Shown here: positions 24,751 to 63,113 of the stretch, in pieces
Position numbering within the stretch: the first letter of the stretch is position 1
How the letters are laid out: each line of letters begins with the position of its first letter
Assembly (NCBI GenBank): GCA_964609085.1
Contig: CAZSRZ010000012.1
Coordinates: 2,292-66,291 of the forward strand
Reading direction: 5' to 3'
DNA: 64,000 nucleotides
From: an uncultured bacterium
GTDB taxonomy: Bacteria; Armatimonadota; SYMT01
Notes under the pieces: generated by a model
The model's database searches: none
What the model was told of the DNA's origin: nothing
What the model saw: only the letters and a program-made list of their open reading frames with translations
Made by a program: the position numbers and the translations under genes

Positions 24751-27252
24751 TTGATCCGCATCCGGTGGTCGCTGAAACTGGTCCTGTCGCTCGCGCCTGC
24801 GGTGCTGGCAGCGGCTGTGGCTGCGGCGCCAACAACCGCTCCCACTTCAGGGGAATCGGTGATCGCTCGATCCTGCCTTCGATGCCACGGGGACGGCGCA
24901 ACGCAGGCCGGGCTGGATCTCAGGAGCAGAGAATCCGCTCTCAAAGGCGGCAAGCACGGGCCGGCCCTGGTTCCGGGCCATCCGGAGCGAAGCCTGCTGC
25001 TGCGGCATGTGCTGGGTGAGGTCAAGCCGCAGATGCCGCCGACCGGACCGCTCTCCGGCGCTGATGTGGCGTCACTGCGTCGCTGGATTGCCGGCGGGGC
25101 GGAGTACACGGTCCGGCGCGCTGGCCGAGACGCACGGTGGTGGGCGTTCAGAGACGTGATTTCGCCTGCCGTTCCCACGGTGAATTCGCCCTGGATCCGA
25201 GGACCCATTGATGCGTTCATCCTGCGGCAACTGCGCGCGAGGGGGCTCACTCCCAGCCCCGCGGCGGATCCCCGTGCCCTGATTCGCCGGGTTACCTTTG
25301 ATCTGACCGGGCTCCCGCCCGCGCCGGAAGCCGTAGAGCGATTCGTCCGGGACCCCTCGCCGGCGGCCTACGACCGCGTGGTCGATCGGTTGCTGGCCTC
25401 GCCCGCCTACGGAGAGCGTTGGGCCAGGATGTGGCTCGACCTGGCGCGTTACGCCGAGAGTGAAGGGTTCAAGGCGGATGAGACACGCCCCGACGCCTGG
25501 CGGTACCGCGATTATGTGATCCGCAGCTTCAACGACGACAAGCCTTATGATCGGTTCATCCGGGAACAGATCGCCGGCGACGAGTTGTTTCCCAACGATC
25601 CAAACGCCCTCGTCGCCACGGGCTTCAATCGACACTGGGCCGATGAAAGCAACGCGAGGAACCTGGCGTTGCGCCGGCAAGAGATCCTCAATGACATCAC
25701 CGATACCGTCGGCTCCGTGGTCCTGGGCCTGACGGTCGGTTGTGCCCGCTGCCACGACCACAAGTACGACCCCATCCCACAGAAGGACTACTACCGGCTG
25801 CAGGCCTTCTTCGCCGCGGTCCAGCCGAGAAGCGATCTGGTGCTGGCACCCCCGCCCGAGATTGAGCGCCACCGCCAGGCTCTGGCCGAGTGGGAGAGTG
25901 CGACCGAACCGGCCCGCAAGCGGATCGCTGCCATCGAGGAACCCGTGCGCCGTCGCCTGGTGGTAGGAAAGCGCATGCCGTTCACCGATGACGTGCAGGC
26001 CGCGATTGACACCCCGGCTGCCCGGCGCACCGCGCTCCAGTGGCAGCTCTTCCTGCAGGTTTCTCCCCAGTTGGAAATCACCGATGAGGAGATTGCCAAG
26101 GCCCTCAAGCCGGAGCAGCGAAGTGAGTGGGAAGCGGCACGGGCTCGGGTGACCGGCTGCGGGGTGAAGCGACCGGCGCCGCTGCCCACGGCTCAGGGCG
26201 TCACGGACGTGGGGCCGGAAGCGCCGCCCACCCACGTCCTCAATGTCGGTCTCTACGACTCGCCCGGCGAGCTGGTGGAGCCAGGGTTCCTCAGCGCTGT
26301 CGACCGCCGCCCGGCGCGCATCACACCACCTGGTTCCCTGCGCTCGACGGGACGGCGGTCCGCTCTCGCGGCGTGGCTTTCCGCGCCGGACAATCCGCTG
26401 ACGGCTCGCGTCATCGTCAATCGCCTGTGGCAGGCGCACTTCGGCAGCGGGCTCGTGGGCACCGCCAGCGACTTCGGCAAGACGGGGGATCTGCCTTCGC
26501 ACCCGGAACTCCTGGACTGGCTGGCAGGCCAATTGATCCGCGACGGCTGGAGTCTGAAGCGGATGCATCGGCGGATGGTCACCAGTGCATCCTATCGACA
26601 GGCCAGCGAATTCCGGTCCAATGATGCACGGCGGGATCCGGAAAACAGGCTCCTGTGGCGTGCGAACCGGCGTCGGCTGGAGGCAGAGATGCTTCGGGAT
26701 GCGTGCCTGTCCGTCTCCGGGATGCTCAACCCTAGGCAGGGCGGGCCGAGCGTCTTTCCGGAGATGCCGGAGGGAGTGAGCACTCGCGGCGGTTGGAGCG
26801 TTACGGCAGATCCCGTGGAACGAAACCGTCGGAGCGTCTACGTATTCGTCCGCAGGAATATGCGCTATCCGCTCTTCGAGGCGTTTGACTTCCCGGATAC
26901 CCACGAGCCCTGTGCTCGAAGGGGCATCACCAACACAGCTCCTCAGGCGTTGTTACTCTTCAACGGGGAGCTGGTGATTCGGTGGGCCGAGGCGCTGGCC
27001 GACCGGTGCGCAGCAGCAGTGCGCACCCCGGAGGCGCGTATCGGAGAAGCCTACCACCTCTGCTTCGCACGCCTCCCCAGCCCCGACGAGGTTCGGGATG
27101 GTCTTGCCTTCCTGCGGCGGCAAGAGGTGATCCTTCGCAAGCAAGCGAGCCCCGGTCGCGCTCAACCGGCGGAGGCCGGGATCGAGAGGGCGGCCCTCGT
27201 CGATTTCTGCCACGCCCTGCTGAACGCGAATGAGTTCCTATATGTCGACTGA
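24751..27252 (+). CDS. PSCyt1-DUF1549-DUF1553 protein
   Basis: It has a signal peptide and the haem-like motif 'CLRCHGD'. DUF1549 is shown by 'LIRRVTFDLTGLPPAPEAVERFVRD' and DUF1553 by 'WQAHFGSGLVGTASDFGKTGDLPSHPELLDWLA...MVTSASYRQAS'. Confidence 0.8.
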   Translation: MIRIRWSLKLVLSLAPAVLAAAVAAAPTTAPTSGESVIARSCLRCHGDGATQAGLDLRSRESALKGGKHGPALVPGHPERSLLLRHVLGEVKPQMPPTGPLSGADVASLRRWIAGGAEYTVRRAGRDARWWAFRDVISPAVPTVNSPWIRGPIDAFILRQLRARGLTPSPAADPRALIRRVTFDLTGLPPAPEAVERFVRDPSPAAYDRVVDRLLASPAYGERWARMWLDLARYAESEGFKADETRPDAWRYRDYVIRSFNDDKPYDRFIREQIAGDELFPNDPNALVATGFNRHWADESNARNLALRRQEILNDITDTVGSVVLGLTVGCARCHDHKYDPIPQKDYYRLQAFFAAVQPRSDLVLAPPPEIERHRQALAEWESATEPARKRIAAIEEPVRRRLVVGKRMPFTDDVQAAIDTPAARRTALQWQLFLQVSPQLEITDEEIAKALKPEQRSEWEAARARVTGCGVKRPAPLPTAQGVTDVGPEAPPTHVLNVGLYDSPGELVEPGFLSAVDRRPARITPPGSLRSTGRRSALAAWLSAPDNPLTARVIVNRLWQAHFGSGLVGTASDFGKTGDLPSHPELLDWLAGQLIRDGWSLKRMHRRMVTSASYRQASEFRSNDARRDPENRLLWRANRRRLEAEMLRDACLSVSGMLNPRQGGPSVFPEMPEGVSTRGGWSVTADPVERNRRSVYVFVRRNMRYPLFEAFDFPDTHEPCARRGITNTAPQALLLFNGELVIRWAEALADRCAAAVRTPEARIGEAYHLCFARLPSPDEVRDGLAFLRRQEVILRKQASPGRAQPAEAGIERAALVDFCHALLNANEFLYVD

Positions 27253-28681
27253 TCCGCAACCAACTCGGCCCAACCCGCGGACGACAGTCTCGGGCAGAAG
27301 AGAGCTGCTGATGCGCGGCGGTCTCGGCTTCGGGGGGTTGGCCCTCGGCTCCATCCTGGCCCGGGAGGCGCGGTCGGCCGGCAGGACGAATCCTCTCGCC
27401 GCGGCGAGACCGCATCACCGCCCGCGCGCCGACGCCGTCATCTTTCTCTTCATGGAGGGCGGCCCCAGCCATCTCGACCTCTTTGATCCGAAACCTGAGT
27501 TGCAGCGGCTGGCAGGGCAACCGCTCCCTGCGTCGTACGGAAAACCGATCACCCCGATGGGCGTCTCCGGCAATGCGCTGTTGGGGACGAAGCGCACCTT
27601 CACCCGACACGGCCGGAGCGGGATCGAGGTATCCGACTGGTACCCGAACATTGCGAGGCACGCCGACAAGCTGTGCGTATTGCGAGGCTGCTGGGCCGAC
27701 GGCCTGAACCACGTCGGCTCGGTCTGCCAGATGAACACTGGCTCCATCCTGGCTGGTCGCCCCTCCCTGGGTGCCTGGGTTCAGTATGGCCTGGGTACGG
27801 CGAACGAGAATCTCCCCGGATTTGTCGTCCTGCTCGACGACAAGGAGCCGATCGGGGGACCCAAAAACTGGAGCGCCGGGTTCATGCCCGCTGCGTTCCA
27901 GGGCACGCACTTCCGGCCGAAGGGCGCGCCCATCCTCGGCCTCACGCCTCCCACCGGGCTCACCATGGAGCAGCAGCGCTCAAAGCTCGACTTCGTCCAG
28001 GCATTGAATGCCCGGTTCGGGAAGGGCCGTGAGGACTTCACCGAGTTGGACGCGCGGATCGCCGCCTATGAGCTGGCATTTCGGATGCAATCAAGTGCGA
28101 CTGAGGCCGTGGACCTGCGGGGAGAATCGGATGCTACCCGGCGGCTCTACGGGATGGACCGTCCGGAATCGGCCCGGTTCGGGGAGAACTGCCTCCTCGC
28201 CCGCCGGTTGGTGGAGCGAGGCGTCCGTTTCGTGCAACTCTACTGCGGAACCGGCAGCCAGTGGGACGCTCATACCGACCTGGAGGGGAACCACGGGAAG
28301 ATGTGCGCCGTCTCGGATCGGCCCGTGGCGGGGCTCCTGGCGGACCTGGACCAGCGCGGATTGCTAGACCGCACTCTGGTGATCTGGGGAGGCGAATTCG
28401 GCCGCACACCCATGTCGGAGAAAGGGATCGGCCGCGACCACAACCCCTATGGGTTTACGATGTGGCTGGCCGGCGGTGGCGTGCGCGCGGGGCACGTCAT
28501 CGGGCGCACCGATGATCTTGGGTTGCGGGCCGTCGAAGACCGAATGCACGTGCACGACCTGCACGCCACTGTGCTTCACCTGCTGGGGGAGGATCATCTC
28601 CAACTGACGTACCAGCACAACGGACGCAAGGAACGAGCCACTGTCAACGCCGGCAATGTGATGACGAAGGCCCTGGCATGA
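27230..28681 (+). CDS. DUF1501 protein with Tat signal
   Basis: The signal 'RRELLMRGGLGFGGLALG' is followed by DUF1501 blocks ('IFLFMEGGPSHLDLFDPKPE', 'GRDHNPYGFTMWLAGGGV'). Confidence 0.8.
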   Translation: MSSYMSTDPQPTRPNPRTTVSGRRELLMRGGLGFGGLALGSILAREARSAGRTNPLAAARPHHRPRADAVIFLFMEGGPSHLDLFDPKPELQRLAGQPLPASYGKPITPMGVSGNALLGTKRTFTRHGRSGIEVSDWYPNIARHADKLCVLRGCWADGLNHVGSVCQMNTGSILAGRPSLGAWVQYGLGTANENLPGFVVLLDDKEPIGGPKNWSAGFMPAAFQGTHFRPKGAPILGLTPPTGLTMEQQRSKLDFVQALNARFGKGREDFTELDARIAAYELAFRMQSSATEAVDLRGESDATRRLYGMDRPESARFGENCLLARRLVERGVRFVQLYCGTGSQWDAHTDLEGNHGKMCAVSDRPVAGLLADLDQRGLLDRTLVIWGGEFGRTPMSEKGIGRDHNPYGFTMWLAGGGVRAGHVIGRTDDLGLRAVEDRMHVHDLHATVLHLLGEDHLQLTYQHNGRKERATVNAGNVMTKALA

Positions 28682-31161
28682 GCCTCTGTCTTGCGACGGG
28701 ACTCCGGATGGTGGGCTTCGCCCTCGCGGTGCTGCCGGCGGCCGGGTCAATCGCGGCCGGTATGCCCCCTTCAGCCATCTCCGAGCTGACGCTCGGGCCT
28801 GGTCCCGTGCTCACGCTGCGGGGGCCGGGAGAGGAAGGTCGTCTCTTCGTCACGGCGAGGCTGTCCGGCGGGCGGACGATCGACGTCACCAGCTCGGCAA
28901 AGCTCACCATCTCCGGCGGGTGCGTGACCCTCCTGCGCGGCAATGAGATCCGCGCTCGCTCCCAGGGCCGGTCCCGCGTGACCGCCGAGTACGGCGGGAG
29001 GCAGTCGAGCGTGCTGGTTCAGGTCGTTTCCCCACGGGAGTGGATTCCTTCCTGGCGGCAGGACGTGCTCCCCGTGCTGAGCCGATCAGGCTGCAACCAG
29101 GGAGCGTGTCACGGGAATAGTCTGGGCAGGGGAGGCTTCCTGCTTTCTCTGAAAGGGGAGGATCCGGATCGGGATCTGGACGTCGTCGCACGGGCAGGAG
29201 GTGGACGTCGGATCGACCGGATTGATCCAGGTCGCAGCCTGCTGCTCCGCAAGAGCGCTGGGCTGGTGCCCCATGGGGGCGGACGTCGATTCGCCCCGGA
29301 CTCCTGGCAATTCCGCGTCCTCGCTCGCTGGATCGGCGCTGGGGCACGCGCGGACGACCTCAGCGCGCCGGCGCTGGTGGGCATCGACGCGACGCCGCGC
29401 GAGGCGATTGTTGAGCAGCCGACCGTCTTTGCTCGCGTCACAGCCACGGCCCGCTATTCGGATGGGTCCCGCCGCGATGTGACGTCGCTCGCCGCCTACC
29501 AGTGCGCCGAGCCTTCCGTGCAGGTCGGCCCTGAGGGCACCGTCGACTGCGATCGCGGGGGCGACGCCCCAATCCTGGTTCGCTTCGCCGACCAGATGAG
29601 CACCGCCCGCATCATCTTCATTCCTCGCCGGCCCCGGGTAGCGTGGACGGCGCCCCCTGCGGCCAACGTGATCGATGAGCTCCAGTACTCTCGCCTGCGT
29701 GCACTGCGGCTGCACCCATCCCCTCCGGCTTCCGACCCCGTGTTTCTGCGGCGGGTGTTTCTCGACACGCTGGGAGTGCTTCCAACCCCTGATGAGGCCA
29801 GGGCATTCCTCGTCGACTCTCGTCCGGATCGTCGGGCTCGGCTTATCGAGAGCCTGCTCACGCGGTCGGAGTTCGACGATTTCTGGGCGATGAAGTGGGG
29901 GGATCTGCTTCGGTCAGAGGAACGGTCGCTGGATCCGACCGGCATCGTCGCCTACAGGGACTACCTGCGCGCCGCTATCTCCCGCCGGATGCCTCTCGAC
30001 CAACTAGCTCGGGAGCTGCTCACGAGTTCCGGGTCGACCTACAAGCAGCCGGCGGCCAACTACTACCGCCGCACGCGCGCGCCCGAGGAGCTAGCCGAGA
30101 CGTCCGCACAGATCTTCATGGGCACGCGGCTCCTGTGCGCACGCTGCCACAACCACCCCACGGAGAAGTGGCGACAGGACGACTACTACGCCCTCGCTGC
30201 CTACTTCGCTCGGGTCGACCGCAAGATCGAGAACCTCACTCGGCGCGACAAGTTCGATCTGCACGAGATGATCGGCGAGGAGATGATCCAGCCGGCCGAG
30301 AAGGGCGAGGTCCGGCATCCCCGGACAAGGGCGGTCGTGGCTCCTCATCTTCCCGGCAGTCCGCCGGATCCACGCCATGAAAACGGGGATCGTCGGGTGC
30401 ACTTTGCCACGTGGCTTACGTCGCCGAGCAATCCCTATTTCTCCCGTGCCCTCGCGAATCGGATCTGGTACCACCTGAACGGCCGCGGGCTCGTCGACGC
30501 AGTGGACGACCTGCGAGAGTCCAACCCGGCGTCCAACCCGGCGCTGCTCGATCGCTTGGCGCTGGAGCTACGACAATCGGGCTACGATCTGCGTGCGCTG
30601 GCACGGCTGATCCTCAACAGCCATACCTACCAGGCCGCGTCCGAGACCACCCCGGCCAACGCCGGGGATGACCGGTTTTTCTCTCACGCCGTCGCCCAGC
30701 GGGTTCCGGCTGAGGTCCTGTTGGACGCGATCGCGCAGGTCACCGGCGTGCCCGAGGCGTACGCGGGATTTCCGCCAGGCACACGAGCGACCCAACTCCC
30801 GGCCGTCCGCACTCGAAACCCGTTCCTGCTCCTCTTCGGCCAACCGACCCGGGAGACGGTCTGCGAGTGCGATCGGACCAGCGATACGACGCTCGGCCAG
30901 TCCTTTGCCCTCCTCAGCGGTGACGTCATCGACAGCAGGGTCCGACGCAAGGATAATCGGTTAGGTGCCCTGATCAGCCTCGGCAAGGACGACACTGCCA
31001 TCATCGAGGAGCTCTACCTTGCCGCCTACGCCCGGTTCCCCGACGCGGCCGAGATGAAGACAGCGCTGGGGTTCCTGCAGCAGAAGAGCGATCGGCGATC
31101 CGCCCTTGAGGACCTGTTGTGGGCGATCCTGAACAGTTCGCAATTCTTGCTTCGAAGGTAG
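28678..31161 (+). CDS. PSCyt2/DUF1549/DUF1553 protein with Ig-like N-terminal domain
   Basis: After the signal peptide comes 'CNQGACHGN' (PSCyt2-type). DUF1549 is shown by 'FLRRVFLDTLGVLPTPDEARAFLVDS' and DUF1553 by 'NRIWYHLNGRGLVDAVDDLRESNPASNPALLDRLA'. Confidence 0.75.
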   Translation: MSLCLATGLRMVGFALAVLPAAGSIAAGMPPSAISELTLGPGPVLTLRGPGEEGRLFVTARLSGGRTIDVTSSAKLTISGGCVTLLRGNEIRARSQGRSRVTAEYGGRQSSVLVQVVSPREWIPSWRQDVLPVLSRSGCNQGACHGNSLGRGGFLLSLKGEDPDRDLDVVARAGGGRRIDRIDPGRSLLLRKSAGLVPHGGGRRFAPDSWQFRVLARWIGAGARADDLSAPALVGIDATPREAIVEQPTVFARVTATARYSDGSRRDVTSLAAYQCAEPSVQVGPEGTVDCDRGGDAPILVRFADQMSTARIIFIPRRPRVAWTAPPAANVIDELQYSRLRALRLHPSPPASDPVFLRRVFLDTLGVLPTPDEARAFLVDSRPDRRARLIESLLTRSEFDDFWAMKWGDLLRSEERSLDPTGIVAYRDYLRAAISRRMPLDQLARELLTSSGSTYKQPAANYYRRTRAPEELAETSAQIFMGTRLLCARCHNHPTEKWRQDDYYALAAYFARVDRKIENLTRRDKFDLHEMIGEEMIQPAEKGEVRHPRTRAVVAPHLPGSPPDPRHENGDRRVHFATWLTSPSNPYFSRALANRIWYHLNGRGLVDAVDDLRESNPASNPALLDRLALELRQSGYDLRALARLILNSHTYQAASETTPANAGDDRFFSHAVAQRVPAEVLLDAIAQVTGVPEAYAGFPPGTRATQLPAVRTRNPFLLLFGQPTRETVCECDRTSDTTLGQSFALLSGDVIDSRVRRKDNRLGALISLGKDDTAIIEELYLAAYARFPDAAEMKTALGFLQQKSDRRSALEDLLWAILNSSQFLLRR

Positions 31162-50591: not shown

Positions 50592-52496
50592 GTGCAGACT
50601 TCGAACACACTTGGTCGCTACCAGATCCTCCGCGAGCTGGCCCGCAGCAACGACATCGTCTACGAGGCCCGGGATCCATCAGGGCTTCGCGTCGCCCTCA
50701 AGGAACTGCAGGTGCCGGCCAATCTCGTGGGTCGCGCCCGCACCGAGAGGATCGCTCGGTTCACGCGGGAGGCACGGGCGGCCGCCAGCCTGAAGCATCC
50801 GAACATCGTCCATATCCATGACCATGGCGACGTGCAGGGTCGCTACTTCATTGCGATGGAGTTCCTGCAGGGTCAGTCACTGCGTGACGTGCTGCGACAG
50901 CGGGGCGCACTCCCGGCGAGCGACGCCATCAACATCGCCGCGAAGGTGGCGGAAGGGCTGGCTTATGCCCACAAGCACGGCGTCGTGCACCGGGACGTCA
51001 AGCCGGACAACGTGCACATGGAACCGGATGGGCGCGTCGTCATCACCGACTTCGGCATCGCCCGGCTCACCTTCGAACCCACCCTGACGGCGGAAGGCCA
51101 GGTGTTCGGCACTCCCAGCTATATGTCGCCCGAACAGGTGACGGGCAAGGGGATTGATCACCGCAGCGATGTCTTTTCTCTGGGCGTGATGCTTTACGAG
51201 ATGGTGGCAGGCCGGAAGCCGTTTAGCGGCGACAGCGTCATCACCATCACCTACAACATCATGAACATGGAGCCGTCTCCTCTCGCGAATGGACCGACCG
51301 GCCTGGACGCCGTCATCCGTCGCGCCATGGCCAAAGACCCGAATCGGCGGTACGCAAACTGCGCCGAGTTGATTGAGGACCTCCAGTCGATCCAGCAGGG
51401 GCGGCGCCCTGCGCATGCGGACAGGATGCCTCCAGCTCGAGTGGGCGGCGCCGCCCCCGCCCGCCCATCAGGAACGCAGGCCCGGCATCCCGCGCCCCCG
51501 GCACCCCGGCCGCAGCCTCGCCCGGCCCCGCGGGCAGCAGGGCCGCTGCCGCATCCTGCCCCGGGATATCCCGCGCCGGTTCGCCAGGGCGCTTCGCCGG
51601 GGGCGCCCGTGCGCGGTGCCCGCCCAGCCGCGCCACCCACACACCAGATTCCAGCGCCGGTGCCGGTCTACCACTCGTCCCCCCAACGGGGCGGGCTCGA
51701 TCTCCGGTGGTTGCTGGGCTGGCTCGGTCTGGCCGTACTCGTCGGGCTGATGATCATCGGGATTGTTTGGGTGAGTGTGACCGCCCTGGATCGCTTCCGT
51801 GTGGAGACCAGTGTGCGCGACGCCGAGAGAGCGCATACGATCGCGGCGGCGGACTTCCAGGCAGGGCGGTATGAGGAGGCGCTGCGGGGGTATCTCGCGG
51901 CGGAAAAAGGCCTCTCCGGCCCCCGCCTCCTGGTGGTGCAAAAGAATGCGGCCAACGCCGCCGTGGCGCTGGCTGATCGGGCGCTGGAACAGAAGGATGC
52001 GGCCCGCGCGGAGTCGTTCGCTCGCCAGGCCGTGCAGCAGAACCCGGACGAACCGGCCGCCCGGTTGTCGCTGGGCAGAGCGCTGGCGCTGCTGGGGCGC
52101 GTGGATGAGGCCCTGCAGGAGTTTGGACAGGTCGAGGGGGCGGCGGAGCGCGCCCGACGAACGGACACGCCGGCCGAGGCGGCCCTCCATCGAAAGACGG
52201 TCGAGGCCCTGCCGCTGTGGCGCGCGGCAACGACCTACGCGGACGGCGTGGCGCTGGCTGAGACGAACCCCCAGCTCGCCCGCCAGCGATTTCAAATGAC
52301 CGTGGATGCCGCGCCAGCCTCCGATTTCGCCAGAAACGCGCGAGATTACATCCTGCGGATCGACTCTGCCGCTCGGGCCGGCACGCCCCTCAGCCCGCCA
52401 TCCGATCCGCCAGGCGGGCAGCCTGGGGGCGTCGGCGGCTCGCCGGAACGGCCCCCTGGCTGGACGGATCCTGGGTTCAGGGCCAGTGATCCCTGA
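50592..52496 (+). CDS. Hanks-type Ser/Thr protein kinase with TM segment and C-terminal TPR region
   Basis: Kinase motifs are 'VALKEL', 'HRDVKPDNVHM', 'DFGIAR' and 'GTPSYMSPEQ'. A Pro-rich linker, a TM helix 'LGWLGLAVLVGLMIIGIVWV' and TPR-like repeats follow. The start codon is GTG. Confidence 0.85.
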   Translation: MQTSNTLGRYQILRELARSNDIVYEARDPSGLRVALKELQVPANLVGRARTERIARFTREARAAASLKHPNIVHIHDHGDVQGRYFIAMEFLQGQSLRDVLRQRGALPASDAINIAAKVAEGLAYAHKHGVVHRDVKPDNVHMEPDGRVVITDFGIARLTFEPTLTAEGQVFGTPSYMSPEQVTGKGIDHRSDVFSLGVMLYEMVAGRKPFSGDSVITITYNIMNMEPSPLANGPTGLDAVIRRAMAKDPNRRYANCAELIEDLQSIQQGRRPAHADRMPPARVGGAAPARPSGTQARHPAPPAPRPQPRPAPRAAGPLPHPAPGYPAPVRQGASPGAPVRGARPAAPPTHQIPAPVPVYHSSPQRGGLDLRWLLGWLGLAVLVGLMIIGIVWVSVTALDRFRVETSVRDAERAHTIAAADFQAGRYEEALRGYLAAEKGLSGPRLLVVQKNAANAAVALADRALEQKDAARAESFARQAVQQNPDEPAARLSLGRALALLGRVDEALQEFGQVEGAAERARRTDTPAEAALHRKTVEALPLWRAATTYADGVALAETNPQLARQRFQMTVDAAPASDFARNARDYILRIDSAARAGTPLSPPSDPPGGQPGGVGGSPERPPGWTDPGFRASDP

Positions 52497-57619: not shown

Positions 57620-57645
57620 GATAGGATGTGTCGCAGCAGACCCCC

Positions 57646-58046
57646 CACGCTCCCTCACGGCTGCGGCTCAGCGGGGGTGCTCCCGACCTGGGTGCGCGGG
57701 CGTCCCGGCCCGCCTGGCCTCCACGATCCATGGACCCGTCGGGGCACGTCGGCGGTGAATCGCGAGTGGCCGAGGACTCCAGGCACCAGACGGAGGCCGA
57801 GTCCGCTGGCGGCAATGGCACCACGCTCCCTGACGGCCGCGGCTCAGCGGGGGTGCTCCCGACCTGGGTGCGCGGGCGTCCCGGCCCGCCTAGCATCCAC
57901 GATCCATGGACCCGTCGGGGCACGTCGTCGGTGAATCGCGGGTGGCCGAGGACACCAGGCCCCGGGCCCCAGGCCCCAGACGGAGGCCGAGTCCGCTGGC
58001 GGCAATGGCACCACGCTCCCTGACGTCCGCGGCTCAGCGGGAGTGG
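57646..58046. repeat. tandem direct repeat, about 2.2 copies of a 176-190 bp GC-rich unit
   Basis: The unit starting 'CACGCTCCCTGACGGCCGCGGCTCAGCGGGGGTGCTCCCGACCTGGGTGCGCGGGCGTCCCGGCCCGCC...' recurs at 57646, 57822 and 58012 with over 90% identity. The second copy carries a 14-bp insertion (CCCGGGCCCCAGGC). The period is not a multiple of 3. Confidence 0.85.
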
Positions 58047-58317: not shown

Positions 58318-59871
58318 ATGGCCAACGGTATGACCGTGAGTCACACCTATGACAGCGACAGCCGCGAACTGCTGCTGGAGAACCGGAAGAGCGATGGCAC
58401 GGGGATCGCCGTCTACACGGCGCAGTATGACAACGCTGGCAATCGGCTCAACGTCGTCGAGCTCGACGGCAGCCGGGTGACGTATGGCTACGACGAAGTA
58501 TCCCAGCTCACCAGCGAGGTGCGGTCGGGGACCTGGCCCTACGACATCCAGTATGAGTACGACGGCTGCATGAACCGGAAGCGGATGATCGAGAGCGGCG
58601 CCGTCACCAGCTACAGCCACAACGCGGCCAACGAGCTTCTCGTGGTCCAACCCTTCAACGCCTTCCCGACCAGCATGACCTGGGACGCCGACGGGAACCT
58701 GGAGACCGAAGTCACCGGGGCGAATCGGACCACGCGAAGCTGGGACTCCGAGAACATGATGGTCAGCGTCAGCAGCCCCGACGGCCTGGCCACCCACACC
58801 TACAGCCAGGGTCAGAACGGCTACCGCGTGCGCAAAGCAGACCCGGACGGAACGACGGTCTTCGTCTGGGATCTCGAGAACATGCTTCTCGAGGCAGACC
58901 TGGCCGGCGTGACACAGGCGAAGTACACCGACTTTCCGGGGTATTGGGGTGGCCTGGCCAGCCAGCGGATGAGCAGCGTCTCCGGTTGGTACTGTACGGA
59001 CGCGGACGGAAACGTGCGCTACCTGGTTGATGAACAGGGTCTCGCGGGCGGCCAGATCTGTCTCGCGTCGTTTGGGGTGCGGCTGGACGGCGCCGTCGGG
59101 CGGGAGCTACCCTGCGTCTTCCACGGCCTCACGGGGTACCGCACTGCGGGAGCAACCCTATTCGTTCGCGCGAGATCTCTGCAGCCCTCGGTCGGCCGAT
59201 TCTCGAGCCGTGACCCCTTCGGTACCTCTGATCTCTACGTGTATTGCGGTAATCGGCCTCTCCTGCTGGACGACCCATCTGGGCTAGTATCCAGGAAGGG
59301 GAAGCCGTCGGGTGTCGAGTGGACTGCCTTGCTTCCCATTCTTCCTTCTCCACTTAGGGAACTATGCCTTGGGGCAGCGACGTGTCAGTACCTGCAAGGA
59401 CTGACCGAGTACGGCAACTGGTGTGGAGCGGGGATCTCAGGTCCAGCCACCGGTCGTCCGAGCACCACCTGTGATTGTATCGATACGGGGTGCGCAAACC
59501 ACGACGCCTGTCTCCGGGGAATCGCGCCTGGCACTTCCTTGGCACGGCTAGCGTGCGACACGGCCCTCTGCCGCAAGGCTAAGTCGTGCCTCGGCGGGGG
59601 CTGCGATCGGCAGGTTGCGTCGCCGCCGTGTACACCGGTAACCTGCAGGCAATTTGCCTGGCGCATAATATTGAACTTCTGCCAGGGCGGAGCAGGTTCG
59701 AGCCCCCCGGCCACGTATCCCGTGCCCGCCGTCAACGGCAACCGTAACACGTCGATCGATGACATCCGCAACTGGTGCGTGTGGTATGGATGGCCGGGGA
59801 TATCGCTTTACCATCCTCCTTTTCCCAACCCTCTCGGTCCGCTACCAGGTTCAAGTTATTTCTGGAGGTGA
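58318..59871 (+). CDS. N-terminally truncated RHS/YD-repeat polymorphic toxin with C-terminal secreted-PLA2-like domain
   Basis: YD repeats are present ('YDSDSRELL', 'YTAQYDNAGNRL', 'YGYDEVSQL', 'YEYDGCMNRKR'). The RHS core ends with 'GYRTAGATLFVRARSLQPSVGRFSSRDPFG...LLLDDPSGL'. A 190-aa Cys-rich tail then carries 'YGNWCGAGISG' (PLA2 Ca-loop-like YGxxCGxG) and 'DCIDTGCANHDACL' (PLA2 catalytic CCxxHDxC-like). There is no PAAR or other N-terminal trafficking domain. Confidence 0.7.
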   Translation: MANGMTVSHTYDSDSRELLLENRKSDGTGIAVYTAQYDNAGNRLNVVELDGSRVTYGYDEVSQLTSEVRSGTWPYDIQYEYDGCMNRKRMIESGAVTSYSHNAANELLVVQPFNAFPTSMTWDADGNLETEVTGANRTTRSWDSENMMVSVSSPDGLATHTYSQGQNGYRVRKADPDGTTVFVWDLENMLLEADLAGVTQAKYTDFPGYWGGLASQRMSSVSGWYCTDADGNVRYLVDEQGLAGGQICLASFGVRLDGAVGRELPCVFHGLTGYRTAGATLFVRARSLQPSVGRFSSRDPFGTSDLYVYCGNRPLLLDDPSGLVSRKGKPSGVEWTALLPILPSPLRELCLGAATCQYLQGLTEYGNWCGAGISGPATGRPSTTCDCIDTGCANHDACLRGIAPGTSLARLACDTALCRKAKSCLGGGCDRQVASPPCTPVTCRQFAWRIILNFCQGGAGSSPPATYPVPAVNGNRNTSIDDIRNWCVWYGWPGISLYHPPFPNPLGPLPGSSYFWR

Positions 59872-59873
59872 CG

Positions 59874-60950
59874 ATGGCGAACACGCGAACCCGAAAGGGC
59901 CCGAATTGGCTCGATAAAGTGTTGTTGCCGGCGGTGACGGTTGGCATTCTCGCGTGCTGCATTCTCAGTTCCGGCTGTAGTGCCGTCAGCAACGACACAT
60001 TCCAGGACTCTGCGATCGACGTCTCCGCTGACGGCAACCGGATCTGCTTCGCCGCGGCAGGCGACGGCAGGAGAGACATCTACTGGCTCGACAGGCGGAC
60101 AGGTTTGGTCCAACTGGTCGCCAAAACCGCCCAATGGGAACGGGGACCTCGGTTCGTGCCGGGATCCAATATGCTGGTGTGCAGTGCGGGCGACGCGGGA
60201 GGTGAGTCGGCCCACATTGAGCAGCGCGATCTCGGCGGGACCGCCGGACCAGTAATGCTCACCGCAGACGAGGCGCAGATCGACGAGTGCCCAGCCGTGT
60301 CGCCGAACGGGAGACTGGTGGCCTTCGCGCGCGCGCCAAAGCTCGGACTGGGGCCTAACGGCTATCTACCCGGATCATGGGACGTCTACACTGTCAGCGT
60401 GAAAGGGGGTGCTCCCGTCCAACGCACCACGATTGGCTTTGGGCGGTTGGTCTCCTTGGCCTTCTCTACTGACGGTAGGTATGTCTATTTCAATGCTCAG
60501 CGACTGCGCGTCCCTGGCTTTCGCGTTTTCCGCCTGGACTTGGCTCGACCAGCGCAGCCGGTTGAACTCAAGATGCGGCTCCCCGTGTACGAGCCGATCC
60601 CGGGACCAGGCGCGAACAGCATACTGTACTGCTCAACGGCCAAGGCGAATCCACCTGGGGGGCCAAGTACGGGTACCGTGGAGCTATTCAGGATGGACGG
60701 TCTCGCAAAGAATCGGTGGGGCAATCCCTCGCAGCTCACGCACGGGGATCAACCCATTTGGAGTCCAGTGCTCGCTCGCTCTACGCAGACGGTTTACTTC
60801 GTTCGGCAGTCGCCTAGCAGTACCATGAGGCGCCGGATGGCGGAGATCCGTAGTTACTCGCTCACCAATGGCACCGAGTCAAAGGTGGCTGGCGAGCAAA
60901 TTTTTAGCGATCCCCTTGGCGGGTCGACTGCGCCCGGGCAGGTCCGTTGA
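59874..60950 (+). CDS. PD40/TolB-like beta-propeller lipoprotein (candidate immunity protein)
   Basis: The ATG lies 2 nt after the RHS stop, with a 'ggagg' RBS. The signal peptide and lipobox is 'VGILACCILSSGC'. Repeated 'SADGNRICF', 'SPNGRLVAF' and 'STDGRYVYF' blades match the PD40 pattern. Confidence 0.65.
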   Translation: MANTRTRKGPNWLDKVLLPAVTVGILACCILSSGCSAVSNDTFQDSAIDVSADGNRICFAAAGDGRRDIYWLDRRTGLVQLVAKTAQWERGPRFVPGSNMLVCSAGDAGGESAHIEQRDLGGTAGPVMLTADEAQIDECPAVSPNGRLVAFARAPKLGLGPNGYLPGSWDVYTVSVKGGAPVQRTTIGFGRLVSLAFSTDGRYVYFNAQRLRVPGFRVFRLDLARPAQPVELKMRLPVYEPIPGPGANSILYCSTAKANPPGGPSTGTVELFRMDGLAKNRWGNPSQLTHGDQPIWSPVLARSTQTVYFVRQSPSSTMRRRMAEIRSYSLTNGTESKVAGEQIFSDPLGGSTAPGQVR

Positions 60951-61645
60951 CTTCACGAAGCGTCGCCACCATGGGGAAGATCGATCGACCCGAAACTGTT
61001 CCGGACAGCCGAAAGCGCGATGGGACGGGGAGCGGACTCCACACGGCGAGTTACGATCAAGCGGCGAACCGCCTCAACCTGGTCGAGCTGGACGGCAGCC
61101 GGGTGACGTGTGGCTACGACGAGTCCTATCAGCTCACCAGCGAGGTGAGATCCGGCACCTGGCCGTATGACATTGCCTATCAGTATGACGGCGCCTCAAA
61201 CCGGCTGGTGAAGGTGAAGGACGGTCAGCGAACGACGAGCACCTACAACGCCGCGCAGGAGCTGACGGTCATCCAGCATCCCGACGGGACGCGCACCACT
61301 CTCACCTGGGATCCCAACCGCAACCTGGAGACGGAGACCCTTGGATCGGCGACTACCACCTACCAGTGGGATGCCGAGAACCAGATTCGGCAGATCACCG
61401 AGCCACCGAGTACCGTTAACACCTACCGTTACCGGGCCCATCACTGTCGCGGCATCCAGCAGAACGACACCAGCACCAAGTACCTGATCTGGGACTGGCA
61501 GAACTGCGCACTGGAGCTGACCGACGGCCTGGCAGTGGCCGCCGAGTACTCGGGATACCCGGGCGAGTGGGGCGGGCTGGCCAGCATGCGCCGCGGCGGT
61601 GCGTGTGGCTTGCTTCATCCGGACTACTCTGCAAAGAAACTGTGA
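60947..61645 (+). CDS. RHS/YD-repeat fragment (paralogue of 58.3-59.0 kb region, no RHS core or toxin; probable remnant)
   Basis: 'NRLNLVELDGSRVTCGYDESYQLTSEVRSGTWPYDIAYQYDG' is roughly half identical to the corresponding stretch of the upstream RHS gene. It ends just after the conserved 'YPGEWGGLAS' block, about 50 bp inside the point where GC content drops. It has a TTG start, or an ATG at 60971. Confidence 0.5.
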   Translation: MTSRSVATMGKIDRPETVPDSRKRDGTGSGLHTASYDQAANRLNLVELDGSRVTCGYDESYQLTSEVRSGTWPYDIAYQYDGASNRLVKVKDGQRTTSTYNAAQELTVIQHPDGTRTTLTWDPNRNLETETLGSATTTYQWDAENQIRQITEPPSTVNTYRYRAHHCRGIQQNDTSTKYLIWDWQNCALELTDGLAVAAEYSGYPGEWGGLASMRRGGACGLLHPDYSAKKL

Positions 61646-61944
61646 AACCACTGTTAGCACTTTTGGTGCTGCCAACTATGGGAATGGTGGCACTCAAGAT
61701 GATCGGGCTATTGGTGGGGATTGAAACCGGTATTGTGGGCTTCTTCGCAGTTGGTGTTGTTACGTTGTTATTGGCCCGCCGAACTGCACGGGCTGCTGTT
61801 TCGCAGCTGGAACACATGCGTGGTGGCTGGAACCAACCTGGAGACGAGACATTTGCCCTGAGATGTCTTACATGGGTTTTCTGGCTGGTGGGAACCATGT
61901 ATGTTTTATTTGGGCTGGTTGAGATTGTCGTGGCGCTGAAATGA
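61643..61944 (+). CDS. small 2-3 TM membrane protein (hypothetical)
   Basis: A GTG start overlaps the RHS-fragment stop. The translation includes 'LALLVLPTMGMVALKMIGLLVGIETGIVGFFAVGVVTLLLA' and a second helix 'WVFWLVGTMYVLFGLVEIVVAL'. Confidence 0.4.
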
Positions 61945-62157
61945 CGCTTCAGATTCGGTCGGGTCGGGCCGCAAAGCAATCGGTCGGCCGAGAGCGCACC
62001 ATCAGCCGCCGACACTTCACTCCCCCATCCGCTCCGCTAAACGATTGCTTTGTTGCCACCACGATAGCTCGATTTGGGGCTGGAGGTGTCGATCTCCGTG
62101 CGGATGTGCAGTGAATGTGGACGACAGGCAGTCCACGGGTTGACCCGATCAGCTTGT

Positions 62158-62178
62158 ATTCAGTATTGGCTACTGAAT
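62158..62178. promoter_or_regulatory. perfect 8-bp inverted repeat (candidate operator) upstream of small ORF
   Basis: ATTCAGTA-TTGGC-TACTGAAT lies 60 bp upstream of the 62240 ORF. TTGACC at 62141 is a possible -35 element. Confidence 0.3.
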
Positions 62179-62239
62179 CCGCCTCGGTTCGAGTCTGGCG
62201 GCGCCAGGGCAATGCAGTGGCTAGTTTGGAGCTCTAGAA

Positions 62240-62449
62240 ATGCCTAGATGGATTGACTATCTGGCGCTGATTGGGATCAGTGTCCTCGGATTGGGTGCGG
62301 CCGGATGCGCTTTGGTGTTCGTTCAGTTGGCAGAAAGGGGCAGTATGGCGGAAGCACGCCCCTGGGTGTGGGGTGAAGTCGGTCTGTCTCTGGTCTGCGG
62401 TGGGATTCTGGTCTGGTATTTCAAAAAAACTGTTAGACAGATGCGCTGA
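62240..62449 (+). CDS. small 2-TM membrane protein (hypothetical)
   Basis: The translation is 'MPRWIDYLALIGISVLGLGAAGCALVFVQLAERG...WVWGEVGLSLVCGGILVWYFKK', 69 aa, lying in the low-GC island. Confidence 0.4.
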   Translation: MPRWIDYLALIGISVLGLGAAGCALVFVQLAERGSMAEARPWVWGEVGLSLVCGGILVWYFKKTVRQMR

Positions 62450-62582
62450 TCTCTAAGAACAGGTGTGAACAACTGAACCACAAACAGGCGTTGAAAACGG
62501 ATCCATCCCTGGGGCATCTCTCAGGCGATCGCATATCTCGAGTTGGACCAGAGGCTATTCTGCCACTGAAGGATTGGATTTA

Positions 62583-63113
62583 ATGAGCGATACGGGCTTA
62601 CTGACGAGAATTGGGCGATTAGGAACGGTAGTCTTTGGTGTGGGGTGGGTTGGCGTAACGGTGGCCGCAGTATTATCTACCCCGGTAATCTTGAGATCTG
62701 GTGCAGCCGGGCTTTTCGATATGGCGGTCCTGATTCTTACTGCGGTTGGCACTGGCCGACTGACGAGAATGGCCAGTCTTCCACACGCAAAAGCAGCTCT
62801 GACAGCCTCCTGGGCTGGACCGCTGATCTTGCTTGTGGAAACTGTGCTGGTCTCTGATATGTCACCAGGATCTACCGGACTGAGAGTTGGCATTATCCAA
62901 GGTTTACTGGAAGCCGCTTTCTTCTGCTGGCTAGTGCGCGCCTACGGGGCGTTAACCTGGGTTGCTCTGGGCCCGATTGGCTCCGACCGCGGATCGAGGG
63001 TTTTCCGGTTTGCTGCGGACATGCCGGGCCGTCTCTGGTGGTTGCTACCGATGTTCTTCCTTCTGAAGGGAGTCCTGGTTTTCTGGCTTGTTAGCCGTAG
63101 TGGAAGCGGTTAG
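62583..63113 (+). CDS. multi-TM membrane protein (hypothetical; candidate orphan immunity protein)
   Basis: The ATG at 62583 follows an 'aagga' RBS. Four or five hydrophobic helices are present ('GTVVFGVGWVGVTVAAVL', 'MAVLILTAVGTG', 'WAGPLILLVETVLV', 'LLPMFFLLKGVLVFWLV'). It lies in the low-GC island. Confidence 0.45.
   Translation: MSDTGLLTRIGRLGTVVFGVGWVGVTVAAVLSTPVILRSGAAGLFDMAVLILTAVGTGRLTRMASLPHAKAALTASWAGPLILLVETVLVSDMSPGSTGLRVGIIQGLLEAAFFCWLVRAYGALTWVALGPIGSDRGSRVFRFAADMPGRLWWLLPMFFLLKGVLVFWLVSRSGSG

What the first reader, a model, noticed from the sequence alone, without database searches (positions are those of the whole stretch)
58318..60950. RHS polymorphic toxin tipped with a secreted-phospholipase-A2-like domain, plus a PD40 beta-propeller lipoprotein as candidate immunity partner
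Seen in sequence: a canonical RHS core ending '...RFSSRDPFG...LLLDDPSGL' is followed by a tail of about 190 aa and about 15 cysteines. The tail carries 'YGNWCGAGISG' and 'DCIDTGCANHDACL'. These match the Ca2+-binding loop (YGxYCGxGG) and the catalytic His-Asp block (CCxxHDxC) of secreted PLA2s. From established knowledge, the DPxGL motif marks the auto-cleaved boundary of RHS toxin tips. Phospholipase effectors (Tle-type) are neutralised by periplasmic lipoprotein immunity proteins. The gene 2 nt downstream encodes a lipobox-bearing PD40 beta-propeller, which is not a fold I know as a PLA2 or RHS immunity protein. The RHS gene lacks any N-terminal PAAR or secretion domain and begins inside YD repeats. 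The pairing of a eukaryote-like sPLA2 fold on an RHS scaffold with a beta-propeller lipoprotein may be an undescribed toxin-immunity pair.
Basis: partly seen in the sequence, partly recalled or inferred. Interest (0 to 1): 0.72.

Follow-up and report, generated by a model that had tools for sequence, protein, structure and literature searches.

The report
Orphan RHS toxin with PLA2-like tip
A truncated bacterial RHS toxin gene carries a rare cysteine-rich phospholipase-A2-like warhead, closest to plant secreted PLA2s, and sits beside a beta-propeller lipoprotein that recurs next to distant relatives and is probably its antidote.

Summary
ORF 58318-59871 has about 317 aa of YD/RHS repeats and an Rhs core ending DPFG-x16-DPSGL. 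A 194-aa tail with 15 Cys follows.

On its own the tail misses the Pfam PLA2 thresholds. An exhaustive search found about 10 true relatives, all short Rhs-core-plus-tail proteins. They share invariant C-G, D..D..C..HD.CL and 10 conserved Cys.

A PD40 protein lies directly downstream in the window and in three other distant family loci. One is 27% identical over 310 aa. Other subclades carry an ankyrin lipoprotein or small membrane proteins instead. That pattern fits cognate, extracytoplasmic immunity.

The window gene is a 5'-truncated orphan cassette. It has no signal peptide or PAAR. A second, decayed RHS fragment follows it, in a Planctomycetota-type genome.

PLA2 tips on RHS (Streptomyces type) and a beta-propeller immunity protein (PefE) are already known. 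This is therefore a new variant of a known kind. It was not tested biochemically.

The parts
58318..59871 (+). Orphan rhs-CT gene (517 aa): RHS repeat fragment, then Rhs core, then PLA2-like toxin tip. It has no signal peptide, PAAR or other N-terminal delivery domain.
   Evidence: ORF list. The exact protein is on record in NCBI. Pfam and NCBIfam scans.
58318..59148 (+). YD/RHS repeat segment of about 277 aa, far too short for a closed RHS shell.
   Evidence: PF05593 E 1.2e-11. TIGR01643 YD_repeat_2x. tblastn finds no further RHS sequence in the window apart from the second fragment.
59149..59286 (+). Rhs-associated core with the two aspartyl-protease motifs, DPFG (59212-59223) and DPSGL (59272-59286). 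The self-cleavage site is predicted after Leu323.
   Evidence: TIGR03696 at aa 278-323, 35.3 bits against a cut-off of 32.5. Motif positions. Cleavage itself is inferred from established knowledge of Tc/Rhs C-terminal autoproteolysis.
59287..59868 (+). C-terminal toxin tail, 194 aa with 15 Cys.
   Evidence: Homologues found.
59398..59685 (+). sPLA2-like core domain (tail aa about 38-133). It has three long helices and 10 family-conserved Cys.
59410..59442 (+). Candidate Ca2+-binding loop YGNWCGAGISG. The family consensus is [YH]G[NKR]xCG, and the plant motif is YGKYCGxxxxGC.
   Evidence: C-G is invariant and G43 nearly invariant. HMMER aligns it to rice RYGKYCGILYSGC. The plant motif is taken from PMC6635587.
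59473..59514 (+). Catalytic block DCIDTGCANHDACL, containing the His72-Asp73 pair (tail numbering).
   Evidence: D, D, C, H, D, C and L are invariant across 14 sequences. The block aligns to rice DALDACCMVHDHCV and bovine DDLDRCCQTHDNCY.
59557..59559 (+). Asp91 of the tail (in ACDTALC), candidate equivalent of the helix-3 Asp99 of animal sPLA2s. Homologues have D, H or N here, as plant enzymes do.
   Evidence: Alignment columns. The rice alignment places C-D opposite C-N. HMMER's bovine alignment places D99 elsewhere, so this assignment is tentative.
59874..60950 (+). PD40 beta-propeller protein (358 aa) with an N-terminal signal or lipoprotein sequence (aa 1-35, 59874-59978). Candidate cognate immunity protein.
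   Evidence: PF07676 E 1.5e-10. Precomputed hits PF26549 Tricorn_N and PF07676. It is a full-length homologue of the gene downstream of P0007 in L007. The same domain set sits downstream of P0015.
60947..61645 (+). Second, decayed RHS fragment (232 aa). Its 5' boundary matches the first fragment's. It stops before the core, so it has no DPxGL and no toxin.
   Evidence: 74% nt identity between 58356-58578 and 60982-61204, spacing 2626. tblastn 46.7% identity, E 7e-55. Translation.
61567..63113 (+). Low-GC stretch (55-57%) with three small multi-TM ORFs (61567-61944, 62240-62449, 62574-63113). They may be orphan immunity-type genes; whether they belong to the system is uncertain.
   Evidence: Composition, translations, no Pfam family.

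Best explanation
This is an orphan polymorphic-toxin cassette in a Planctomycetota-type, diderm genome. A 5'-truncated rhs gene keeps about 277 aa of YD repeats and the Rhs core with its self-cleaving DPxG...DPxGL motif. Its tip is a disulfide-rich, Ca2+-dependent secreted-phospholipase-A2 domain whose nearest solved relative is plant group XI sPLA2.

Once the tip is joined to a full-length Rhs carrier or otherwise exported, it would be released after Leu323. It would fold only in an oxidising compartment and hydrolyse the sn-2 ester of membrane phospholipids from the periplasmic or outer side of a target cell.

The gene 2 nt downstream encodes an exported, probably lipid-anchored PD40 beta-propeller. 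It most likely binds the PLA2 domain in the producer's periplasm and blocks its interfacial or active-site face. That would make it the cognate immunity protein.

- Shown here: domain identities, conservation of the catalytic motifs, fold similarity, recurrent toxin-PD40 synteny, and the truncation.
- Inferred: enzymatic activity, autocleavage, compartment of action, direct inhibition by the propeller, and the orphan/recombination role.
For: RHS part:
- PF05593 and TIGR03696 both score above their cut-offs.

Toxin tip:
- About 10 true homologues exist among 1.84 billion representatives, all Rhs-core + tail.
- C-G, D..D..C..HD.CL and 10 Cys are conserved.
- The family profile hits rice sPLA2 at E 1e-5 and bovine at 1e-3, and the list is almost purely sPLA2.
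- Six of 11 members hit PF00068. P0015 scores 30.7 bits against a gathering score of 32.1.

Immunity partner:
- PD40/Tricorn_N genes lie directly downstream of the toxin in the window, next to P0015 (overlapping start), next to P0007 in L007 (27% identity over 310 aa, E 1e-21) and next to P0009 in L008 (PD40 E 9e-5).
- These four toxins are spread across the family tree.
- In other subclades the downstream gene is an ankyrin lipoprotein, a TM-anchored 135-aa protein or a small 2-TM protein. All of these readable partners are exported or membrane-bound.
- P0015 carries a Sec signal peptide directly before the core end and PLA2 domain.

Orphan status:
- There is no N-terminal domain and no other RHS in the window.
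- A second fragment shares the same 5' boundary.
- L007 is an array of such cassettes.
Against: - The window's own tail fails every Pfam PLA2 gathering threshold.
- Foldseek E-values are weak (0.09).
- The second Ca2+-loop glycine is not conserved in the family.
- The Asp99 equivalent is ambiguous: the rice and bovine alignments disagree.
- Only 4 of 11 readable contexts have a PD40 partner. One of those (L008) could not be shown to be an orthologue of the window's protein (hhalign probability 5.6%).
- The PD40 model from a single sequence failed (pLDDT 33.6), so no interface could be examined.
- No full-length rhs, PAAR, VgrG or other delivery gene was seen among the window ORFs I scanned.
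- Nothing shows that the gene is expressed.
Confidence: 0.66

Rival explanations
1. The PD40 protein is not an inhibitor. It is instead an accessory factor, such as a folding or export chaperone, an activator or a receptor-binding partner for the disulfide-rich toxin. Alternatively it is an unrelated TolB-like envelope protein that merely travels with the cassette.
For: Immunity proteins can double as activators: E. cloacae Tli and P. mirabilis PefE are both needed for effector activity (bioRxiv 10.1101/2023.03.28.534661). PD40 repeats resemble the TolB propeller (TIGR02800 partial hit, E 1e-11). Seven of 11 family members have a different downstream gene.
Against: The position directly downstream of the toxin tip (2 nt gap, or an overlapping start in the P0015 locus) is the canonical immunity position. 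The partner type changes with toxin subclade, as expected for cognate pairs. All readable alternative partners are also exported or membrane proteins. The TolB score is 44 bits against a cut-off of 343, and there is no TolB N-domain.
Confidence: 0.15
2. The locus is only a decaying remnant. The truncated rhs fragment is neither translated nor ever used, and the PLA2-PD40 pair has no present function in this genome.
For: The 5' truncation leaves no signal or PAAR domain. The neighbouring second fragment is clearly degenerate. No promoter-like site lies upstream. No main rhs gene is present in the 64-kb window.
Against: Both ORFs are intact, with all catalytic residues and 15 Cys preserved and tight 2-nt coupling. 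Orphan rhs/cdi cassettes in other bacteria keep working immunity genes and can be re-activated by recombination (established knowledge). The sigma-70 scan does not cover planctomycete promoters.
Confidence: 0.12
3. The tail is a PLA2-fold protein that is not a lipase toxin. It could be a catalytically dead membrane binder like Lys49 myotoxins, or a Cys-rich domain that only converges on the motifs.
For: Pfam scores are sub-threshold. The Gly32 equivalent is variable. The 60-aa Pro/Trp-rich C-terminal extension has unknown function and low pLDDT.
Against: His-Asp, both upstream Asp residues and the Ca-loop C-G are invariant across members only 24-67% identical, which argues for selection on catalysis. 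The hit lists are specific to sPLA2s rather than to Cys-rich proteins in general.
Confidence: 0.07

Closest known systems
Tox-PLA2-tipped polymorphic toxins (Zhang, de Souza, Anantharaman, Iyer & Aravind 2012, PMC3482391)
   Same: A PLA2-fold toxin domain sits at the C-terminus of RHS or filamentous polymorphic toxins. These occur in many phyla, including planctomycetes.
   Different: That family is the Streptomyces/fungal group XIV type (PDB 1kp4, motif CxxHxxxYxN, two disulfides). No immunity family is listed for it. The window's domain has the classical YGxxCG Ca2+ loop and CxxHDxC block and at least 10 conserved Cys. It gives no PF09056 hit and lacks YxN.
Plant group XI secreted PLA2 (rice OsPLA2, PDB 2WG7/2WG8/2WG9)
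   Different: The plant enzyme is eukaryotic, free-standing and signal-peptide-secreted, with 12 Cys. The window's domain is fused behind an Rhs autoproteolytic core, has a different Cys pattern and a Pro/Trp-rich C-terminal extension, and is paired with an immunity-type gene.
PefD-PefE of Proteus mirabilis (PMC5714391)
   Same: An immunity protein with a predicted bladed beta-propeller fold is encoded directly downstream of a disulfide-rich effector.
   Different: PefD is a PAAR + Tox-GHH2 nuclease delivered by a T6SS. I could not test homology between PefE and the PD40 protein here.
T6SS Tle phospholipases with periplasmic Tli lipoprotein immunity (e.g. E. cloacae Tle/Tli, bioRxiv 10.1101/2023.03.28.534661)
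   Same: A membrane-lipid-degrading toxin acts in the periplasm and is neutralised by an exported lipoprotein. One family member (P0003) even has an ankyrin lipoprotein partner like E. cloacae Tli.
   Different: Tle enzymes are alpha/beta-hydrolases or PLD-type, not sPLA2 fold. They are T6SS-linked, and no T6SS genes were seen here.
Orphan rhs-CT/immunity modules downstream of main rhs genes in Enterobacteria (established knowledge)
   Same: A 5'-truncated rhs fragment retains core homology, a toxin tip and an immunity gene. Cassettes are arrayed in tandem (window: two; L007: three).
   Different: No main rhs gene lies upstream; the flanks are housekeeping genes (FIST, kbl, tdh, altronate dehydratase). 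In related loci the core + toxin is a separate ORF with its own ATG overlapping the stop of the repeat ORF.

Membership tests
RHS/YD polymorphic toxin | YD/RHS repeats | tested here: met
   PF05593 E 1.2e-11. TIGR01643 E 6e-5.
RHS/YD polymorphic toxin | Rhs-associated core ending in DPxGL, with an upstream DPxG | tested here: met
   TIGR03696 scores 35.3 bits against a cut-off of 32.5. DPFG-x16-DPSGL is present.
RHS/YD polymorphic toxin | Complete shell (roughly 1000 aa or more of repeats) plus an N-terminal delivery domain (PAAR, signal peptide, VgrG, etc.) | tested here: not met
   Only 323 aa precede the cleavage motif. There are no N-terminal domain hits and no hydrophobic N-terminus. The gene is therefore an orphan fragment.
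RHS/YD polymorphic toxin | C-terminal autoproteolysis releasing the tip | not testable with these tools
   Only the motif is present.
Classical secreted PLA2 superfamily (PF00068/PF05826; groups I/II/III/XI) | Ca2+-binding loop Y-G-x-x-C-G | tested here: met
   YGNWCG is present. C-G is invariant and G nearly invariant in 14 sequences. It aligns to the rice and bovine loops.
Classical secreted PLA2 superfamily (PF00068/PF05826; groups I/II/III/XI) | Catalytic His-Asp in C-x-x-H-D-x-C | tested here: met
   CANHDAC is present. H, D and both Cys are invariant.
Classical secreted PLA2 superfamily (PF00068/PF05826; groups I/II/III/XI) | Helix-3 Asp99 (Asp/His/Asn/Ser in plants) supporting the His | tested here: inconclusive
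   The C-D of ACDTALC aligns to rice C-N, and D/H/N predominate in the family. The bovine alignment places D99 opposite a different helix.
Classical secreted PLA2 superfamily (PF00068/PF05826; groups I/II/III/XI) | Score above the curated Pfam gathering threshold | tested here: not met
   PF05826 scores 13.1 against 22 bits and PF00068 scores 10.4 against 32.1 bits. The best relative, P0015, scores 30.7 against 32.1. This is a divergent branch outside the current models.
Classical secreted PLA2 superfamily (PF00068/PF05826; groups I/II/III/XI) | Small disulfide-rich three-helix sPLA2 fold | tested here: met
Classical secreted PLA2 superfamily (PF00068/PF05826; groups I/II/III/XI) | Ca2+-dependent sn-2 phospholipid hydrolysis | not testable with these tools
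   Needs an enzyme assay.
Tox-PLA2 / prokaryotic group XIV PLA2 (PF09056, PDB 1kp4) | Motif CxxHxxxYxN and a PF09056 match | tested here: not met
T6SS Tle/Tli phospholipase effector-immunity pairs | Alpha/beta-hydrolase (GxSxG) or PLD catalytic domain | tested here: not met
   No such Pfam hit was found. The fold is sPLA2-like.
T6SS Tle/Tli phospholipase effector-immunity pairs | Linkage to VgrG, PAAR or T6SS genes | tested here: inconclusive
   None were found among the 24 window ORFs I scanned. The whole window was not scanned, and the rest of the genome is unavailable.
TolB | Full-length TolB (N-terminal domain plus six-bladed propeller) above the equivalog cut-off | tested here: not met
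   TIGR02800 scores 44.3 bits against 343, a partial match over aa 50-154 only.
Cognate immunity protein of a polymorphic toxin | Encoded immediately downstream of the toxin tip, with the pairing conserved in divergent relatives | tested here: met
   The gap in the window is 2 nt. PD40 partners also follow P0015, P0007 and P0009.
Cognate immunity protein of a polymorphic toxin | Binds and neutralises the toxin | not testable with these tools
   No multimer prediction was available. The single-chain PD40 model failed.

The most novel reading that the evidence does not exclude
This very rare bacterial family has about a dozen members among 1.84 billion protein representatives. It may be a prokaryotic branch of the classical, Ca2+-loop-bearing, disulfide-rich sPLA2s, which were thought to be essentially eukaryotic or viral, and it sits closest to plant group XI. 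If so, it would mark either the bacterial polymorphic-toxin origin of eukaryotic secreted PLA2s or a plant/alga-to-Planctomycetota transfer that was weaponised on an Rhs scaffold. Its PD40 beta-propeller partner would then be a previously undescribed class of proteinaceous sPLA2 inhibitor.
Probability: 0.3. Interest if true: 0.65.

Novelty: new variant of a known kind. Interest (0 to 1): 0.5.

Why it matters
The architecture of Rhs tip plus downstream immunity gene is textbook. Neither half of this particular pair has been described in the literature I could search.

- The toxin is a classical plant-like sPLA2 domain used as a bacterial polymorphic-toxin warhead.
- The candidate immunity protein is a PD40 propeller lipoprotein.

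If confirmed, three things would follow:
- a new toxin family and a new immunity family for the polymorphic-toxin catalogue;
- a natural protein inhibitor scaffold for secreted PLA2s, which are enzymes of medical and industrial interest;
- a data point on where eukaryotic sPLA2s came from.

It also shows that sub-threshold Pfam hits on Rhs tips can be rescued by family-level profiles.

Tried and rejected
- Word-indexed homologue search with the tail found nothing. With the PD40 protein it found only the protein itself.
- The exact-sequence contig look-up for the PD40 protein returned nothing.
- The genome-contig scan with the Rhs protein returned only two distant RHS loci in Bacillota MAGs, not the source genome.
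- The metagenome-contig scan returned only a contig I already held. The viral-contig scan found nothing.
The single-sequence model was useless (pLDDT 33.6), so I ran no fold search on it.
- The afdb50 fold library was unavailable.
- hhalign of the PD40 pair against the L008 partner was inconclusive (probability 5.6%).
- The 354-aa protein near P0004 is not a PD40 relative.
- The small TM partners of P0010 and P0014 show only marginal similarity (E 0.014).
- Rfam, tRNA and promoter/terminator scans of the island gave nothing informative.
- I considered and rejected membership in Tox-PLA2/group XIV, Tle lipases and true TolB (see membership tests).
Full report
**1. What is in the sequence**

The ORF list shows a + strand ORF whose NCBI-annotated form runs 58318-59871 and encodes 517 aa.
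- Pfam finds RHS repeats (PF05593, E 1.2e-11).
- NCBIfam finds the Rhs-associated core at aa 278-323 (TIGR03696, 35.3 bits against a cut-off of 32.5).
- The core carries DPFG at aa 299-302 and DPSGL at aa 319-323, 16 residues apart. This is the arrangement associated with C-terminal aspartyl autoproteolysis in Tc and Rhs proteins (established knowledge).
- The remaining 194 residues contain exactly 15 cysteines. They include YGNWCGAGISG (59410-59442) and DCIDTGCANHDACL (59473-59514).
- The stop TGA at 59869-59871 is followed after 2 nt by the ATG of a 358-aa protein (59874-60950). That protein has PD40 repeats (PF07676, E 1.5e-10). Its N-terminus has a basic n-region, a hydrophobic core and LSSGC, which looks like a lipoprotein signal. 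I read this by eye only.

**2. Is the tail a PLA2?**

Taken alone, the tail is not significant. PF05826 gives E 0.11 (13.1 bits against 22) and PF00068 gives E 0.94. The best PDB sequence hit is rice PLA2 at E 2.4. The word-indexed search found no relatives.

The exhaustive phmmer search of 1.84 billion representatives found 13 hits. Two of them (P0006, P0012) are repeat or low-complexity artefacts. Apart from the query itself, the remaining ten are short proteins with the C-terminal part of an Rhs core, a DP[ST]G motif and then a related Cys-rich domain.

Across these relatives and three further ones found with the family profile, the following are invariant: the C-G of the Ca2+ loop, two Asp before the catalytic block, C..HD.CL and a downstream Cys. 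Ten Cys positions are conserved.

The family profile gives clear results.
- Against PDB it hits rice secreted PLA2 (2WG7/2WG8) at E 1e-5 and bovine pancreatic PLA2 at about 1e-3. Nearly all of the 60 listed hits are secreted PLA2s, not generic Cys-rich proteins.
- Six of 11 members hit PF00068 individually, best 5e-6. P0015 reaches 30.7 bits against the 32.1 threshold.

An AlphaFold2 model built with the 14-row alignment is confident over the core, with pLDDT 81-94 for tail residues 41-130.
- Foldseek's top four are the rice PLA2 chains (probability 0.82-0.97, but E only about 0.09-0.14).

The Ca2+ loop matches the plant motif YGKYCGxxxxGC. The D/H/N variation after the helix-3 Cys mirrors what is reported for plant enzymes (PMC6635587). 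That last assignment is alignment-dependent.

There is no PF09056 (prokaryotic PLA2) hit, and the CxxHxxxYxN motif of the catalogued Tox-PLA2 (PMC3482391) is absent.

Conclusion: this is a divergent member of the classical sPLA2 superfamily, closest to plant group XI. It lies outside the current Pfam models and is distinct from the Streptomyces-type PLA2 already known on RHS toxins.

**3. Is the PD40 protein a partner?**

The protein has no close relatives in the word-indexed database. Context look-ups for the toxin homologues were informative.

| Toxin family member | Gene immediately downstream |
|---|---|
| Window | 358-aa PD40 lipoprotein, 2-nt gap |
| P0015 | 318-aa Tricorn_N/PD40 protein, overlapping start |
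| P0007 (L007) | 340-aa Tricorn_N/PD40 protein |
| P0009 (L008) | 321-aa protein passing the PD40 threshold (E 9e-5) |
| P0011 | at least 322 aa, overlapping start; no DNA available |
| P0003 | ankyrin-repeat protein with a lipobox (LLASC) |
| P0004 | 135-aa N-terminally anchored protein |
| P0010 | small 2-TM protein |
| P0014 | small 2-TM protein |
| P0008 | small ORF |
| P0005 | small ORF |

- The L007 partner aligns with the window's protein over 310 residues (27% identity, E 1e-21).
- The L008 partner shares the FARA...G..W.WD segment. Its orthology remains unproven.

So 4 of 11 readable contexts have a PD40 protein in the immunity position. In the gene lists returned for these loci, no PD40 hit appears on any gene other than the one directly downstream of the toxin.

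The four toxins with PD40 partners are scattered over a rough NJ tree, whereas the alternative partners track subclades. Every alternative partner whose sequence I could read is exported or membrane-anchored. P0015 has a Sec signal peptide fused directly to the core end and the PLA2 domain.

This is the pattern expected for cognate immunity against a toxin that folds through disulfides and acts outside the cytoplasm.

On precedent: Zhang et al. noted in 2012 that beta-propellers had not been found among immunity proteins. Since then PefE of Proteus mirabilis, a predicted bladed propeller, has been shown to be an immunity protein (PMC5714391). Tsi1 is a partial propeller (PMC3391265). I found no report of a PD40 propeller paired with a PLA2.

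**4. Status of the window's gene**

- Only about 277 aa of repeats precede the core, and there is no signal peptide, PAAR or other N-terminal domain.
- tblastn finds no other RHS sequence in the window except a second fragment at 60947-61645. That fragment starts at the same repeat position (74% nt identity over 223 nt, spacing 2626). It terminates before the core.
- Next comes a 55-57% GC stretch with three small multi-TM ORFs.
- The flanks are housekeeping genes: FIST, kbl-like aminotransferase, a zinc-dependent dehydrogenase and altronate dehydratase.
- PSCyt1/PSCyt2/PSD1 proteins elsewhere in the window indicate a Planctomycetota-type, diderm genome.

The locus therefore looks like a small island of orphan rhs-CT/immunity cassettes, as known from Enterobacteria, but with no main rhs gene upstream. 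L007 shows the same logic, with three consecutive core + toxin ORFs and different partners.

**5. Mechanism (inferred)**

After recombination into, or assembly with, a full Rhs carrier, or after Sec export as in P0015, the tip would be released after Leu323. It would oxidise in the periplasm or outside the cell, bind Ca2+ through the YGNWCG loop and Asp73, and use His72 to hydrolyse sn-2 acyl chains of envelope phospholipids.

The PD40 lipoprotein would sequester it in the producer's periplasm. The Pro/Trp-rich C-terminal 60 residues might aid interfacial binding. Homologues end in GW or PWP motifs.

None of these steps was tested.

**6. Verdict**

- It is a new variant of a known kind: a new toxin-tip family and a new candidate immunity family within polymorphic toxin systems.
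- It is rare and untested biochemically, and in this genome it is present as an orphan cassette.
- Interest is moderate (0.5). The most novel surviving reading is a bacterial branch of classical sPLA2s with a propeller inhibitor. I rate that at probability about 0.3 and interest about 0.65 if true.

Noticed in passing
window 57645-58045: There are 2.2 tandem copies of a 176-nt, roughly 73% GC unit between the FIST gene and the RHS fragment. The unit occurs nowhere else in the window and has no Rfam match.
   Followed up: partly
window 60947-61645: A second RHS fragment has a TTG start overlapping the PD40 stop codon. It is 47% identical to aa 14-223 of the first fragment. It ends early (…GLASMRRGGACGLLHPDYSAKKL*) with no core, no DPxGL and no toxin.
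   Followed up: yes
window 61500-63113: GC drops to 55-57%. Three small multi-TM ORFs (61567-61944, 62240-62449, 62574-63113) have no Pfam family. They may be orphan immunity genes left behind by lost toxin tips.
   Followed up: partly
L007:3243-4636, L003:2-977, L009:2-1020: In related loci the RHS-repeat ORF stops at a conserved place (…WDGTDYLxE*). A separate ORF in another frame starts M.TV.YTV.DGEI… and encodes Rhs core + toxin. The stop and start overlap (TGATG) or are 1 nt apart. This is a recurrent split of shell and core+toxin, or a conserved internal start of orphan cassettes.
   Followed up: partly
L007:2328-3218 and L007:5877-6701: Two further core + toxin ORFs in the same array have different Cys-rich tails and no Pfam hit. 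They have near-identical N-termini (MPTV[RT]Y…), which would allow recombination between cassettes.
   Followed up: no
P0015 (JGI 3300075153, 7.8-kb contig): This is a minimal version of the toxin: a Sec signal peptide, then the last ~50 aa of an Rhs core (…DPRGL), then the PLA2 domain, with no RHS repeats. The next genes are a PD40 protein and then a CotH-domain protein.
   Followed up: partly
L003:1172-1879: The partner of toxin P0003 is an ankyrin-repeat protein with a lipobox (LLASC). This is the same type as the Tli immunity lipoprotein of the Enterobacter cloacae Tle phospholipase.
   Followed up: partly
window 24751-27252 and 28678-31161: PSCyt1/PSCyt2/PSD1 (DUF1549/DUF1553) proteins are present. 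Together with the Ser/Thr kinase-TPR gene at 50592-52496, they point to a Planctomycetota-type genome.
   Followed up: partly
window 59686-59868 (tail aa 134-194): The Pro/Trp-rich C-terminal extension of the toxin has low model confidence. Several homologues end in GW, PWPL or PWPF. It may be a membrane-interface anchor.
   Followed up: no
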